From the human T2T-CHM13v2.0 reference genome, Homo sapiens, in assembly GCA_009914755.4 (NCBI GenBank), contig CP068257.2:35616001-35680000 (forward strand): a stretch of 64,000 bases of DNA. Direction: 5' to 3'. Shown here piece after piece: positions 23,373 through 26,603 of the stretch (its first letter is position 1; each line of letters starts with the position of its first letter). A program made the translations under genes and the position numbers. Below the pieces are notes generated by a model that was given only the letters and a program-made list of their open reading frames with translations, had not been told where the DNA came from and ran no database searches.

Positions 23373-24339
23373 GCAAATATATGTAAAAATAGGAAGTGCG
23401 GTTTCCCAAAATGAGGTCTGTAAACAACTGATCTAGAAAATGTTCTGGAAAAAGTAAAAAAGGATCAGGATCTGAGGTCAACTGACCTCTCCCTGCGCTC
23501 TGGACAGGCAAACAGGCAAGGTTCCCTCTGAGGCCGTAGCGGCTTCTCGTGGGCGAGTCCCTGTTCGCAGGTGACGTGTGGACCACGCTCTTCCGAAGCG
23601 TCTGGCCTGTGTGCTCTCGGGGAGGGGACGCAGGTCAGCCCACCTAGCCGATGGCTAACAAGTCAGTTTGTTTTCTGAACGGAAGCTTAAACCTAGAAAA
23701 GTAACTGGGTTGGGGTGGGGGTGTAGCCACATGCAGTAAAAGCACTGCCTGTCTGTATAACAACGACCTGATGAAAAAAGGAACGCGTGAAATGGGGAGT
23801 GTTAGGGCGTCACAAACTCCAGTGTGGTTGAAATGAAAGCAGAAAGCAAATGGCAAGCTGGCTTCCCCTTCCAGCTTTTCACAACCCTGCCTTGCTCATG
23901 GTCAGCCCCAAGCACGGGCGGAAGAAAGGACTGGAGGGGAGGGAAAGGGGTGGGGAGCGAGGGTACCAGAGGCGTGGGAGGACGGGGACAAAGGGGCAGC
24001 AAGGGACCGGCGGAAAGGAAAGTCGGCGTTAGCTGGATTGGAAACAGTCCAGACAGAACGATGGGCTCTGCTGCCTCCGGGTGGGGCACCAAGCGGGGAG
24101 CGGGGCCACGAGGCAGGGGACAGTGAAGCACCATGCAGCGCCCACCAGCCGGCAGCGCCCACCAGCCTGCGCTGCGCTGCACATGGTACCCGCGGCCCCA
24201 GCTGGCCAGTGTGTGGCGGAGATGAGACCCTCGTGAAGAGACTAAGCGGCCACAGCAGGGGGAAGGGTTGCTCACATAACCCCATACTGCTCACACTACG
24301 AGGTTAACTGCCGTGAGATCTGCCTGCAGCCAGCAGAAA

Positions 24340-24730
24340 CCCGTTCTAGGAAAACGTTGCCCAGTGACTTCAGTGAGTGCCACTGACCCGGGCGCCTCCG
24401 CCCCGGCGTCCGGCAGCAGCACCGATTGCGCAGGAGGCACCTTGCAAACAACCTTTCCTGATCCGCGCTGCAGTTCCCAGGCCGGTTGCAGCCGTTTCAC
24501 AGAGACTGCGCACACAAAGCGTCTCCGTGCCCTGCCATTCACCTTTCGACACAGCCGCAACCCCTCTTTTCAGTGTTAAAACCTGGCGCCAAAATGAACA
24601 TGCGATGTGACGTGTTACCTCTGCGCATGCGCCGGGCATTCCCAGCACCCCGAACCTGATGAACGCGCGGTGGGGACCCCAGGCTTCCGTGCTTTCGTTT
24701 TCCTGGAAGCTACGTGTCCTCAGTCTACAT
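24340..24730. promoter_or_regulatory. CpG-rich block about 0.4 kb long, deep in DSCR3 intron 1. It carries a perfect NRF1 palindrome GCGCATGCGC and an adjacent TGACGTG (CRE-like half site).
   Basis: tgtgacgtgttacctctgcgcatgcgccggg lies at about 24607-24637. I count roughly 30 CpGs in 360 bp. A G-rich stretch (runs of GGGG) lies at 23920-24130 just upstream. Confidence 0.4.
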
Positions 24731-26603
24731 ATTGTTACCTGGAAAATAAAGTTTTCTCCTTTTTTCTTCCTTTGTTAACAGGCAGAAGGTGTAGGCTGCA
24801 GGTTTCGGGCCTAAGAGAGGGCATGGCTGGCGACACGGAGTAGACTCCTAGATGACATAACGGAGGCGAGTCTGCACCGGGGACTCGGCATTAGGAGGAG
24901 GCAGAGGAAAAGCCCACCACCGTGGCCGAGGGAGATCTAGCAAGCAGCTTGCAGGGGGTGAAGTGTGTGCAAAGCAGGCTGAGACCTGTCCAGTATCGAA
25001 ACACGCCGCGGTGGTCAAGCAGGCTTTACCATGCTCAGGCGCAGGCTGGTACAAGATTTGCAGCAACAAACACCAAGTGGAGAACTACATGAACACTTTT
25101 GATCGCATCCCAGTTTTCAGACAATCTCGGATAATTCTGAAAATGCTTCTTATGCATTATATAAGAGTTTAGGTTATGATTTAACAGACAAGCTTTTTCA
25201 GGAGTATTAGGTTATTGGCAGAAGAAGAGACCTACTTAAAGTTTGGATGACTGTATTCCTAAAAGGTTCATACCTCTCAAAATTACCTTAAGATCTCTTC
25301 TGGCTCAGAGATTTAAATTTTTATACCCTAAGTCCTTACAACAAGCATTCACTGTTACAACTGATCATTCATTTACTAAGAATCCAGCAGGTTAAAGTAG
25401 AATATTTAAGCTTAAAAAAAAAAACAAAAAAACTAGCATTTTAGCTTTGCAATTTTTCTTCATAATAATGAACTGTTATGTATAGGGTTTCTCCTTTTTT
25501 TTCATAAGAAATTACGGGCATGCCCAATTAAGGTAGTATTGAGGTTCTTAAGGTAACAGTACTCAGTCCACAGTGTATAAATTTCTTCTCACTGTAACCT
25601 GGCTATGCTGGGGAGTAAATCTCTTATTTATGTTTTTCACAACCATAATATTTAACAATGTCATTTTCATGAGTACATGTGCCAGAATTTAAGAATGTAA
25701 AACATTCTGGATTTATAAAAACAAATGAATTATATTTACACTACAGAAAGATTTACTGCAGGATTTTTCTAACCAATAAGCTCCCCTACAGCGTTCCAAG
25801 ACACAAAGTAATTTACAGTGCATTTGAGTCCAACTTTTTGATCAAGAACACATCTGCTGCACTAAGCAAAGGAGTTGCAGCAACACCAAAATCACACTTG
25901 GCTCTCACGGCCAAAATCGCCGTCACCTCCGTATGTTCTCCTTGGTCACTGACTCTCCTTCCTCCAAGCAGACATAGACAGTGGGCACATATTTGACAAT
26001 CTGTGAAGCATCTGACAAGCACTCATTATGCCATTTGGAGGGTGTACTAACGTAACTAGCATTGTGGCATACAAAGGGCAATTCTAAGGGTGAACAGACT
26101 TCGGAGCGTGGAAAAGAACATGACAATGCCACCACCTATTACTGCGGCCCCCACGAGGTGTTGGAAGCTAGGATAAGTGTCTTAAAACACTATCTCATTT
26201 AATTTTTAAAATACAACCTTTGAGTAGGTATCATCTCCATTCTACAGATGAGAATTAAGACCCAGAGAAGGCACAAAGAATCCTGGATTTAGGAATAAAA
26301 AGATGCAACTTCAAATATTTGCTATCATCAGTCCCCCTGGCATGTCCCTGAATTCTCTGGGCCTCAGTCTTCTGAACCACAAAACGGAGAAAACGCTACC
26401 TCTTAACAGTATATGGAGGATTAAAGCACTCTGTGAGCTGGAAAAGGCTATCCTAGTCTACCTAGTTATAAAACAGTATTAGTTAGGTGTTTCCATGGGA
26501 AATTTAATCTTTCACTGGAAGTAGGGAATTAGGGAATGTTTAACACAATTCCTGATTATCTCATATCACCCATGGGTCTTTGGAAACAGAAGTCAAGTTT
26601 TTA

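What the first reader, a model, noticed from the sequence alone, without database searches (positions are those of the whole stretch)
23450..24750. GC- and CpG-rich 1.3 kb block deep in intron 1 with a perfect NRF1 palindrome and a G-quadruplex-prone stretch
Between two Alus, about 9 kb into the gene, lies a non-repeat GC-rich block. It contains (i) tctGCGCATGCGCcggg, the canonical NRF1 palindrome, preceded by tgTGACGTGt (a CRE/ATF-like half site) at about 24607-24637; (ii) dense CpGs at 24340-24730, about 30 in 360 bp; and (iii) a G-run-rich region at 23920-24130 (ggaggggagggaaaggggtggggagcgaggg...ggacggggacaaagggg) that fits G4 motifs. Such islands inside a long first intron are often alternative promoters or enhancers. 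The many overlapping ORFs in the six-frame track here come from the high GC content and do not indicate coding.
Basis: seen in the sequence. Interest (0 to 1): 0.5.

Follow-up and report, generated by a model that had tools for sequence, protein, structure and literature searches.

The report
LTR-seeded CpG island in VPS26C intron
The GC-rich block is a real CpG island in VPS26C intron 1, built around a retroviral-LTR-like insertion found only in monkeys and apes; published work already reports it as methylated in placenta, unmethylated in blood, and showing parent-of-origin effects.

Summary
Window 23529-25086 is a 1.56 kb CpG island (GC 0.58, CpG o/e 0.68). It has a unique NRF1 palindrome at 24623-24632 and a G-rich stretch with two G4 motifs. 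It lies 9-10 kb into VPS26C intron 1.

"Non-repeat" is wrong for the core. The CpG-dense, NRF1-bearing part (24210-24780, 571 bp) is present in marmoset. It is absent from lemur, galago, rabbit, bear and elephant. It has TG...CA ends, a 5-bp target-site duplication (GGCAG) and AATAAA near its 3' end, on the strand antisense to the gene. This fits a solo LTR. I could not name the family; MER41 was tested and rejected.

Four of the five species without the insertion have no island there (o/e 0.18-0.31); rabbit is ambiguous. In human versus marmoset, 61% of the block's CpGs are shared, against 9% in flanking intron. That points to long-term germline hypomethylation.

Published primers and array CpGs map into the block. 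It is the "DSCR3" fetal marker (methylated in placenta, unmethylated in blood). Three of its CpGs show parent-of-origin effects on methylation.

Promoter or enhancer activity and imprinting are inferred, not shown. This is a moderately interesting new member of a known kind.

The parts
23529..25086 (.). CpG island (Takai-Jones criteria): 1558 bp, GC 0.583, o/e 0.68, 89 CpG. Equals hg19 chr21:38,629,624-38,631,181.
   Evidence: scan; composition. The hg19 registration (window + 38,606,095) comes.
24210..24780 (+). 571-bp anthropoid-specific insertion, solo-LTR-like and antisense to VPS26C. It starts TGTGTGG and ends GTTAACA. GC 0.56, 37 CpG, o/e 0.83. It carries the NRF1 palindrome and most of the dense CpGs.
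   Evidence: Present in marmoset at L013 11380-11967, 82.5% identity. Absent in lemur, galago and rabbit and in bear. The elephant alignment stops at 24787. Composition.
24205..24209 (+). Left copy of the putative 5-bp target-site duplication. It reads GCCAG in human and GGCAG in marmoset.
24781..24785 (+). Right copy of the putative target-site duplication (GGCAG). Lemur and rabbit have a single GGCAG at the empty site; galago has GTCAG.
24623..24632 (.). NRF1 palindrome GCGCATGCGC, unique in the window. It is identical, with its flanks, in marmoset. The CpG abutting it (24633) is Illumina cg16704958.
24608..24614 (+). TGACGTG, a CRE/ATF-like half site. It is not conserved in marmoset.
24693..24708 (+). 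ISRE-like TTTCGTTTTC overlapping GAS-like TTCCTGGAA. The ISRE is kept in marmoset; the GAS is altered to TTCGCAGAA.
24745..24750 (+). AATAAA, 30 nt before the 3' end of the insertion and followed by a T-rich tract. Conserved in marmoset.
23480..24209 (.). Ancestral G-rich intronic DNA, alignable to lemur, galago, bear and rabbit at 58-65% identity. It is CpG-rich only in anthropoids: o/e 0.60 in human and 0.63 in marmoset, against 0.20-0.24 in lemur, galago and bear.
24781..25086 (.). Ancestral right flank. It is alignable to lemur, galago, rabbit, bear and elephant. CpG o/e is 0.60 in human but 0.22 in marmoset.
23936..24005 (+). Two canonical G4 motifs (23936-23963 and 23976-24005). They are expected from the composition and absent in marmoset.
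24135..24167 (+). Perfect 17-bp x1.9 tandem duplication (GCAGCGCCCACCAGCCG). It is shared with marmoset, has no clear counterpart in the outgroups, and contains cg11287055 (24139).
23373..23742 (.). Published bisulfite amplicon of the 'DSCR3' fetal epigenetic marker. The qPCR amplicon is 23535-23659 and the TaqMan probe starts at 23593. Reported as methylated in placenta and unmethylated in blood.
   Evidence: PMC4691144 main text and Table S1; mapped to the window.
24139..24634 (.). [quoted passage not shown]
   Evidence: PMC6077796 Tables 1, S1 and S3. The registration in the window is unique.
24537..24545 (-). Candidate splice donor AAG|GTGAAT on the VPS26C sense strand, about 85 nt downstream of the NRF1 site. 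It is conserved in marmoset. Speculative.

Best explanation
The block is a CpG island in VPS26C intron 1 that exists only in anthropoid primates and was seeded by a retroviral LTR.

Shown:
- A 571-bp element (24210-24780) inserted before the human-marmoset split and after the split from lemurs and lorises.
- It lies antisense to the gene and has solo-LTR anatomy.
- It brought, or very soon acquired, a perfect NRF1 palindrome and a dense set of CpGs.
- It has kept those CpGs for more than 40 million years, while neighbouring Alus and intron lost theirs.
- The ancestral G-rich DNA on its left gained GC and CpG on the anthropoid stem. Together they now form one 1.6-kb island.

Shown by published data that I mapped onto the sequence:
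- The island is unmethylated in adult blood and methylated in placenta.
- Three of its CpGs, one abutting the NRF1 site, show parent-of-origin-dependent methylation.

Inferred:
- Binding of methylation-sensitive CpG-island factors such as NRF1 keeps the element unmethylated in the male germline and in soma. This protects its CpGs and lets the unmethylated state spread into the flank.
- Because the island sits inside a transcribed gene, it is probably methylated in oocytes. That maternal mark would then persist mainly in placenta, giving a placenta-biased imprinted-type DMR.
- On the unmethylated allele it most likely acts as an orphan promoter or enhancer. The direction of any transcript is unknown.
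For: Insertion:
- Marmoset aligns through the whole block.
- In lemur, galago, rabbit and bear both flanks align but 24210-24780 has no counterpart. The elephant alignment ends at 24787.
- With the element excised, human is colinear with the outgroups across the junction.

LTR anatomy:
- TG...CA ends with TGT/ACA termini.
- GGCAG on both sides, perfect in the marmoset left flank and the human right flank. Lemur and rabbit have one copy at the empty site.
- AATAAA plus a T-rich tract 30 nt from the 3' end.

New island:
- CpG o/e is 0.83-0.84 in the element and 0.60-0.63 in the left flank, in human and marmoset.
- It is 0.18-0.31, equal to the local background, in lemur, galago, bear and elephant.

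CpG protection:
- 46 of 75 human CpGs are shared with marmoset inside the block, against 2 of 22 in flanking non-Alu intron.
- Non-CpG identity is the same in both (0.90 vs 0.91).
- Alus within a few hundred bp to 1.4 kb of the block keep only 4-5 CpGs.

Flank remodelling: on the anthropoid stem, AT-to-GC (W>S) changes outnumber GC-to-AT (S>W) changes 46 to 12. The adjacent control segment gives 21 to 21 (Fisher p = 0.003).

NRF1: the palindrome and 25 nt around it are identical in marmoset.

Published data:
- The DSCR3 marker amplicons map to 23373-23742. MBD-array log2 is 2.77 in placenta and 0.00 in blood, confirmed by bisulfite sequencing (PMC4691144).
- Parent-of-origin effects: cg11287055 P = 1e-15, 3e-11 and 6e-12 at three ages, replication 3e-5. 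cg18380783 and cg16704958 show them too. DSCR3 is listed as imprinted in the Otago catalogue (PMC6077796).
- The three CpGs register uniquely at 24139, 24411 and 24633.
Against: - No repeat family could be assigned. There is no second copy in the window or in about 350 kb of fetched primate and mammal loci. Exact-word scans of metagenome and genome collections gave only chance seeds.
- The stretch after AATAAA is only 30 nt, short for a retroviral U5.
- The left copy of the duplication has one mismatch in human, and the left flank aligns only loosely to the outgroups.
- Rabbit is uninformative on island state: o/e 0.47-0.53 against a background of 0.44.
- The parent-of-origin effect sizes in blood are small (beta 0.01-0.05).
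- DSCR3/VPS26C was not found in the supplementary files I could search from three placental imprinting or methylome papers.
- The block has no ZFP57 hexamer TGCCGC (0 seen, 1.4 expected).
- I have no transcript, chromatin or NRF1-occupancy evidence.
- The GC-biased changes in the flank could come from biased gene conversion and not from a methylation change.
Confidence: 0.6

Rival explanations
1. One reading: an ordinary, conserved, non-repeat intronic CpG island that serves as an alternative promoter of VPS26C.
For: - It meets the island criteria.
- An NRF1 site is followed on the gene's sense strand by a candidate donor AAG|GTGAAT at 24537-24545, conserved in marmoset.
- It is unmethylated in blood (PMC4691144).
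Against: - The island is absent in lemur, galago, bear and elephant.
- Its core is a lineage-specific insertion.
- Non-CpG sites evolve at the neutral rate.
- The isoform proteins I examined differ at the C-terminus. The one alternative N-terminal model (Saguinus, P0047) does not map to the block.
- The sense strand downstream is C-rich, which is atypical of CpG-island promoters.
Confidence: 0.15
2. An inert repeat that only passes the arithmetic island criteria: an LTR whose consensus is CpG-rich, with no regulatory state of its own.
For: - Young transposable elements often satisfy CpG-island formulas (PMC12582260).
- No functional data were available to me.
Against: - The element predates the human-marmoset split.
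- Alus within a few hundred bp to 1.4 kb of the block have decayed to 4-5 CpGs, while the element keeps 37.
- 61% of the block's CpGs are shared with marmoset, against 9% in flanking intron.
- Published data show tissue-specific and parent-of-origin-dependent methylation.
Confidence: 0.07
3. GC-biased gene conversion at a former recombination hotspot raised GC and CpG in the region. The insertion is incidental.
For: Strong W>S excess on the anthropoid stem in the left flank (46:12) against 21:21 in the adjacent control. The flank is also more diverged: 65% identity to lemur against 82% for the control.
Against: - Biased conversion does not explain the selective survival of CpGs in both human and marmoset since their split.
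- It does not explain the blood/placenta and parent-of-origin methylation differences.
- The CpG peak (o/e 0.83-1.0) lies in the inserted DNA itself.
- It may still have contributed to the flank.
Confidence: 0.1
4. The 571-bp insert is not an LTR. It is a captured copy of a CpG-island promoter from elsewhere in the genome, for example filler DNA at a double-strand break.
For: - The motif set is of housekeeping-promoter type: NRF1 palindrome, CCGCCC, an E2F-like GCGCCAAA and a CRE half site.
- No repeat family or second copy was found.
- The sequence after AATAAA is very short.
Against: TG...CA termini, a 5-bp flanking duplication and a 3' AATAAA plus T-rich tract occurring together are unlikely by chance. 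My rough estimate is below 1e-3, allowing for choice of boundaries.
Confidence: 0.08

Closest known systems
Orphan (intragenic) CpG islands, including those containing transposable elements, and CpG-island turnover between species
   Same: - It is an island away from any annotated TSS, inside a gene body.
- It is lineage-specific.
- It has LTR content. LTRs make up about 1.3% of island sequence and are commoner in orphan islands (PMC12582260).
   Different: Here the insertion can be dated by presence and absence. The pre-insertion state (no island) is visible in four outgroups. The flank can also be seen converting to island composition.
Placenta-specific or transient maternal germline DMRs at intragenic CpG islands, and primate-specific imprinting linked to LTRs (Bogutz et al. 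2019; recalled from memory, not read here)
   Same: - An intragenic island, methylated in placenta and unmethylated in blood, with parent-of-origin effects.
- It is primate-specific and associated with an LTR.
- An LTR12-like element lies upstream in the gene's orientation.
   Different: - In the published model the LTR is an upstream oocyte promoter that causes methylation of a host island. Here the LTR is part of the DMR itself.
- Oocyte and sperm methylation and allelic expression are unknown to me.
- There is no ZFP57 motif.
- The locus was not in the placental DMR lists I could search.
MER41 interferon-responsive LTRs
   Same: Anthropoid-specific age, a size of about 570-640 bp, and adjacent ISRE-like and GAS-like motifs near the 3' end.
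   Different: There is no sequence similarity to the chimpanzee AIM2 locus plus 10 kb on each side. That locus contains the tandem-GAS element I take to be MER41.AIM2. The block's element is not a member.
The 'hypermethylated DSCR3' cell-free fetal DNA marker (Kim et al. 2015, PMC4691144)
   Same: It is the same DNA: the published amplicons map to 23373-23742 in the block.
   Different: That paper treats it as an anonymous intragenic region. The main text and Table S1 passages I read say nothing about its evolutionary origin, LTR content or NRF1 site.

Membership tests
CpG island | Length >=500 bp, GC >=0.55, CpG o/e >=0.65 (Takai-Jones); or >=200 bp, 0.50, 0.60 (Gardiner-Garden) | tested here: met
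   23529-25086: 1558 bp, GC 0.583, o/e 0.68.
CpG island | Unmethylated in the germline (the biological definition) | tested here: inconclusive
   By proxy only. CpG sharing with marmoset is 46/75 inside the block and 2/22 outside it. It is unmethylated in blood (PMC4691144). No sperm or oocyte data.
Solo LTR of an endogenous retrovirus | TG...CA ends with short inverted termini | tested here: met
   TGTGTGG...GTTAACA at 24210-24780.
Solo LTR of an endogenous retrovirus | 4-6 bp target-site duplication, with a single copy at the empty site in other species | tested here: met
   GGCAG sits to the left in marmoset and to the right in human. The human left copy reads GCCAG. Lemur and rabbit have one GGCAG; galago has GTCAG.
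Solo LTR of an endogenous retrovirus | Polyadenylation signal in R near the 3' end, with a promoter upstream | tested here: inconclusive
   AATAAA at 24745 plus a T-rich tract. There is no clear TATA box, and only 30 nt remain after the signal.
Solo LTR of an endogenous retrovirus | Lineage-specific presence and absence | tested here: met
   Present in human and marmoset. Absent in lemur, galago, rabbit, bear and elephant.
Solo LTR of an endogenous retrovirus | Membership of a multi-copy family (match to a repeat library or to paralogous copies) | not testable with these tools
   No repeat library or primate genome search is available. There is no second copy in the sequence held. Collection scans gave only chance seeds.
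MER41 LTR | Sequence similarity to a documented MER41 copy | tested here: not met
   blastn (word size 7) of the element against chimpanzee AIM2 +/- 10 kb gave no hit better than E = 0.18. I identified the MER41.AIM2 copy in that locus from its tandem GAS motifs and from memory of the paper.
NRF1 binding site | Match to the palindrome GCGCATGCGC | tested here: met
   Exact match at 24623-24632; expected 0.005 per window; conserved in marmoset.
NRF1 binding site | Occupancy in cells | not testable with these tools
   No ChIP data are available. No paper links NRF1 with DSCR3/VPS26C.
G-quadruplex-forming sequence | G3+N1-7 x4 motif beyond what composition predicts, and conservation | tested here: not met
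   Two motifs are present, but 42% of shuffles give at least one. None in marmoset, galago, bear, rabbit or elephant.
Imprinted germline DMR | Parent-of-origin-dependent methylation | tested here: inconclusive
   Published parent-of-origin meQTL effects at three CpGs that I mapped to 24139, 24411 and 24633. The effects are small and there is no direct allelic methylation measurement.
Imprinted germline DMR | Opposite methylation in oocyte and sperm, with the difference surviving after fertilisation | not testable with these tools
   Only placenta-versus-blood data were found.
Imprinted germline DMR | ZFP57 hexamer TGCCGC, typical of ubiquitous imprinting control regions | tested here: not met
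   0 in the block against 1.4 expected.
Alternative first exon/promoter of VPS26C | A TSS in the block with splicing to exon 2 | not testable with these tools
   Only a candidate donor at 24537-24545 (-). No supporting protein isoform was found.
Coding sequence or processed pseudogene | Protein homology or a poly(A) tail | tested here: not met
   The concatenated ORF translations gave no hit at E<=1e-3. There is no A-tail and no Rfam family.

The most novel reading that the evidence does not exclude
A single retroviral LTR insertion in an anthropoid ancestor created a CpG island where none existed. The LTR and the flank it converted, not a pre-existing host island, became a primate-specific imprinted germline DMR inside VPS26C. 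In this reading the NRF1 palindrome keeps the paternal and somatic copy unmethylated. Transcription through the intron in oocytes, from the VPS26C promoter or from the upstream sense-oriented LTR12-like element at about 48-50 kb, methylates the maternal copy, and that mark persists in placenta.
Probability: 0.25. Interest if true: 0.65.

Novelty: new member of a known kind. Interest (0 to 1): 0.4.

Why it matters
If this reading is right, the locus is a clean, datable natural experiment in how CpG islands are born. The state before the insertion (no island) is visible in lemur, galago, bear and elephant. The state after it is visible in human and marmoset, including conversion of the ancestral flank.

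It would also give an evolutionary origin to a DNA segment already used as a fetal cell-free DNA marker and flagged for parent-of-origin methylation. It would add a case in which the LTR is itself part of the differentially methylated region, and not only an upstream oocyte promoter.

It yields direct tests. One is to mutate or delete the NRF1 palindrome or the whole LTR in human trophoblast or embryonic stem cells. Another is to compare methylomes of anthropoids with those of strepsirrhines.

The gene lies in the Down syndrome critical region, so allele- or dosage-dependent regulation there has some medical interest.

Tried and rejected
- Protein homology: a concatenate of the translations of six of the longer ORFs found nothing in 5.8 billion proteins. 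This gives no sign of coding sequence or a pseudogene. It also means spurious ORFs cannot be used to pull out orthologous or paralogous contigs.
- Rfam over the whole window: only an Alu/7SL-like hit elsewhere.
- MER41: suggested by the adjacent ISRE and GAS motifs and the anthropoid age. I fetched chimpanzee AIM2 with 10 kb flanks and found the tandem-GAS LTR upstream. It shares no similarity with the element, so MER41 is rejected.
- Other copies of the element: repeat search in the window; blastn against all fetched loci; exact-word scans of metagenome contigs and genome contigs. The 42 hits were 18-28 bp chance seeds.
- The bacterial promoter/terminator scan does not apply to human DNA and found nothing.
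- Alternative N-terminal isoforms as evidence of a promoter in the block: the isoforms differ at the C-terminus, and the one Saguinus model does not map to the block.
- Literature: no paper on a VPS26C intronic island, alternative promoter or NRF1 binding. Nothing on NRF1 in HERV regulatory-element surveys. DSCR3/VPS26C is absent from the held supplements of Illingworth 2010 and of three placental imprinting or methylome papers. One further paper's supplements are not held.
- ZFP57 motif: none in the block.
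Full report
**Observation.** The window is human DNA, Alu-rich throughout. A tblastn of the VPS26C protein places exon 1 at 33500-33444, exon 2 at 6848-6705 and exon 3 at 4825-4670, all on the minus strand. The block therefore lies 9-10 kb into the 26.6-kb first intron.

Window 23450-24750 has GC 0.586, 76 CpG and o/e 0.68. The window as a whole has GC 0.44 and o/e 0.35. Window 24340-24730 has 32 CpG and o/e 0.94. 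A formal scan finds three Takai-Jones islands in 64 kb:
- this one, at 23529-25086;
- the VPS26C promoter, at 32830-34695;
- part of an LTR12-like element, at 48259-48831.

GCGCATGCGC occurs once, at 24623-24632, where about 0.005 exact matches are expected per window. The G-rich stretch has two canonical G4 motifs. However, 42% of shuffles of that stretch also give one, and marmoset has none. The ORFs have no protein homologues, and no RNA family matches.

**Comparative data.** No mammalian genome browser was available. I therefore searched for VPS26C proteins and fetched the gene with its introns from seven species: rabbit, tamarin (a partial model), galago, marmoset, lemur, elephant and polar bear.

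Marmoset aligns through the whole block at about 81-83% identity. In lemur, galago, rabbit and bear both sides of the block align, but human 24210-24780 has no counterpart. The elephant alignment stops at 24787. With the 571 bp removed, human is colinear with the outgroups across the junction.

**The insert.** It starts TGTGTGG and ends GTTAACA. GGCAG flanks it: on the left in marmoset (GCCAG in human) and on the right in human. Lemur and rabbit have one GGCAG at the empty site. AATAAA plus a T-rich tract lies 30 nt before the 3' end, on the plus strand, antisense to VPS26C. This is the anatomy of a solo LTR. The insertion happened after the strepsirrhine split and before the platyrrhine-catarrhine split.

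The family could not be named. The ISRE and GAS motifs at 24693-24708 suggested MER41. Against chimpanzee AIM2 with 10-kb flanks, which contains the tandem-GAS LTR I take to be MER41.AIM2, there is no similarity. No other copy was found in any sequence I held or could scan.

**A new island.** The table gives CpG o/e by species.

| Species | Insert | Left flank | Other |
|---|---|---|---|
| Human | 0.83 | 0.60 | right flank 0.60 |
| Marmoset | 0.84 | 0.63 | right flank 0.22 |
| Lemur | absent | 0.24 | whole orthologous region 0.26 |
| Galago | absent | 0.24 | whole orthologous region 0.18 |
| Bear | absent | 0.20 | right flank 0.31 |
| Elephant | absent | 0.25 | right flank 0.19 |
| Rabbit | absent | 0.53 | whole region 0.47; local background 0.44 |

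The lemur, galago, bear and elephant values equal their local intron backgrounds. Rabbit is uninformative because its background is already high.

Left-flank GC is 0.59-0.60 in anthropoids, 0.47-0.52 in lemur, galago and bear, and about 0.45 in the presumed (unaligned) elephant counterpart. Of 39 human CpGs in the left flank, 33 have no CpG at the aligned site in lemur, galago or bear. That alignment is only 58-65% identical, and loss in the outgroups cannot be excluded site by site.

On the anthropoid stem, the flank shows 46 AT-to-GC (W>S) changes against 12 GC-to-AT (S>W) changes. The adjacent control segment shows 21 against 21 (Fisher p = 0.003). One gain in anthropoids, coincident with the insertion, is more parsimonious than three independent losses.

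**CpG protection.** Between human and marmoset, 46 of 75 human CpGs in the block are shared. In flanking non-Alu intron the figure is 2 of 22. Non-CpG identity is the same in both (0.90 vs 0.91). The two nearest upstream Alus, both present in marmoset as well, retain only 4-5 CpGs each. The block is therefore not under general sequence constraint, yet its CpGs have escaped methylation-driven decay in both lineages. That is what long-term germline hypomethylation predicts. The NRF1 palindrome with about 25 nt of context, the AATAAA, a CCGCCC box and the ISRE-like motif are conserved in marmoset. The CRE-like and E2F-like motifs are not.

**Published experimental data.**
- *Placenta marker.* Kim et al. 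2015 (PMC4691144) selected a 'DSCR3, inside' region from chromosome-21 MBD tiling arrays. It gave log2 2.77 in placenta and 0.00 in maternal and non-pregnant blood. Bisulfite sequencing confirmed it. Their Table S1 primers and amplicon map to window 23373-23742 and 23535-23659, the left part of the island.
- *Parent-of-origin effects.* Cuellar Partida et al. 2018 (PMC6077796) report genome-wide significant, replicated parent-of-origin effects on blood methylation at cg11287055, cg18380783 and cg16704958. They list DSCR3 as previously catalogued as imprinted in the Otago database.
- *Registration.* The three CpG coordinates (0, +272, +494) fit the window at one place only: 24139, 24411 and 24633. 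This gives hg19 = window + 38,606,095. As a cross-check, the Kim array probe then falls at 23405-23464, inside their bisulfite amplicon. The RefSeq TSS falls at 33738, which is 238 bp upstream of the ATG.
- *Position relative to the insert.* Two of the three CpGs lie inside the insert, and one abuts the NRF1 palindrome.
- *Negative evidence.* The effect sizes are small. The locus was absent from the placental DMR supplements I could search. The block has no ZFP57 hexamer.

**Mechanism.** The following are shown: the insertion, its LTR-like anatomy, the absence of an island before it, the survival of CpGs since, and (from the literature) tissue-specific and parent-of-origin-dependent methylation.

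The rest is inferred from established knowledge. NRF1 binding is sensitive to methylation and typical of unmethylated islands. Intragenic islands crossed by transcription in oocytes acquire methylation that often persists in human placenta. On that basis, island-type factors would keep the element unmethylated in the male germline and soma, the maternal copy would be methylated in oocytes, and the mark would be kept mainly in placenta. The unmethylated copy would then act as an orphan promoter or enhancer.

The direction of transcription is open. The LTR's own polarity is antisense to VPS26C. A candidate sense-strand donor lies at 24537-24545.

**Rivals.** They are: a conserved alternative promoter; an inert CpG-rich repeat; biased gene conversion; and a captured non-LTR promoter fragment. 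Each is weighed in its own section. Biased gene conversion may well have contributed to the flank.

**Verdict.** Orphan islands with LTR content, and placenta-biased DMRs, are known kinds. What is new here is the datable origin of this island from an LTR. Interest is moderate.

Noticed in passing
window 47900-49900: An LTR12/ERV9-LTR-like element. It has a 41-bp x3.2 tandem repeat at 49160-49291 carrying GATTGG (CCAAT on the minus strand) and a Takai-Jones island at 48259-48831. The CCAAT polarity suggests it points the same way as VPS26C, about 14-16 kb upstream of the TSS (33738). It could be a germline or oocyte promoter reading into the gene. The family identification is from memory, not tested.
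   Followed up: partly
window 25200-26560: The intron segment just right of the island is much better conserved than the island's own ancestral flank. Identity is 82% to lemur, 79% to galago and 74% to bear, against 65%, 61% and 58% for the flank. Window 25429-25754 aligns to rabbit at 74%. It may be a conserved non-coding element.
   Followed up: partly
window 24135-24167: A perfect 17-bp tandem duplication (GCAGCGCCCACCAGCCG) lies 43 bp left of the insertion. It is shared with marmoset and has no clear counterpart in the outgroups. It contains cg11287055, the CpG with the strongest published parent-of-origin effect.
   Followed up: partly
L013 about 11290-11380 (marmoset): In marmoset the 3' end of the element and the adjoining right flank are rearranged or deleted. 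That flank has CpG o/e 0.22, against 0.60 in human. The island therefore extends to the right only in the human lineage.
   Followed up: no
window 39717-39881: An (AGG)n purine-rich simple repeat with extreme GC skew: +0.56 over 39501-40000.
   Followed up: no
window 41256-41402 (-): The only Rfam hit in the window is Metazoa_SRP at 71.5 bits, just above the gathering score of 70. It lies in an Alu-dense area and is probably an Alu/7SL-derived sequence, not an SRP RNA gene.
   Followed up: no
window 12000-17500: A long stretch that is A-rich on the plus strand (AT skew 0.2-0.44, GC 0.31-0.45). This is consistent with a LINE-1 in plus orientation inside intron 1.
   Followed up: no
window 23572 and 24608: The same 9-mer, GTGACGTGT, occurs in the ancestral left edge of the island and inside the insertion. 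It is probably coincidence.
   Followed up: no
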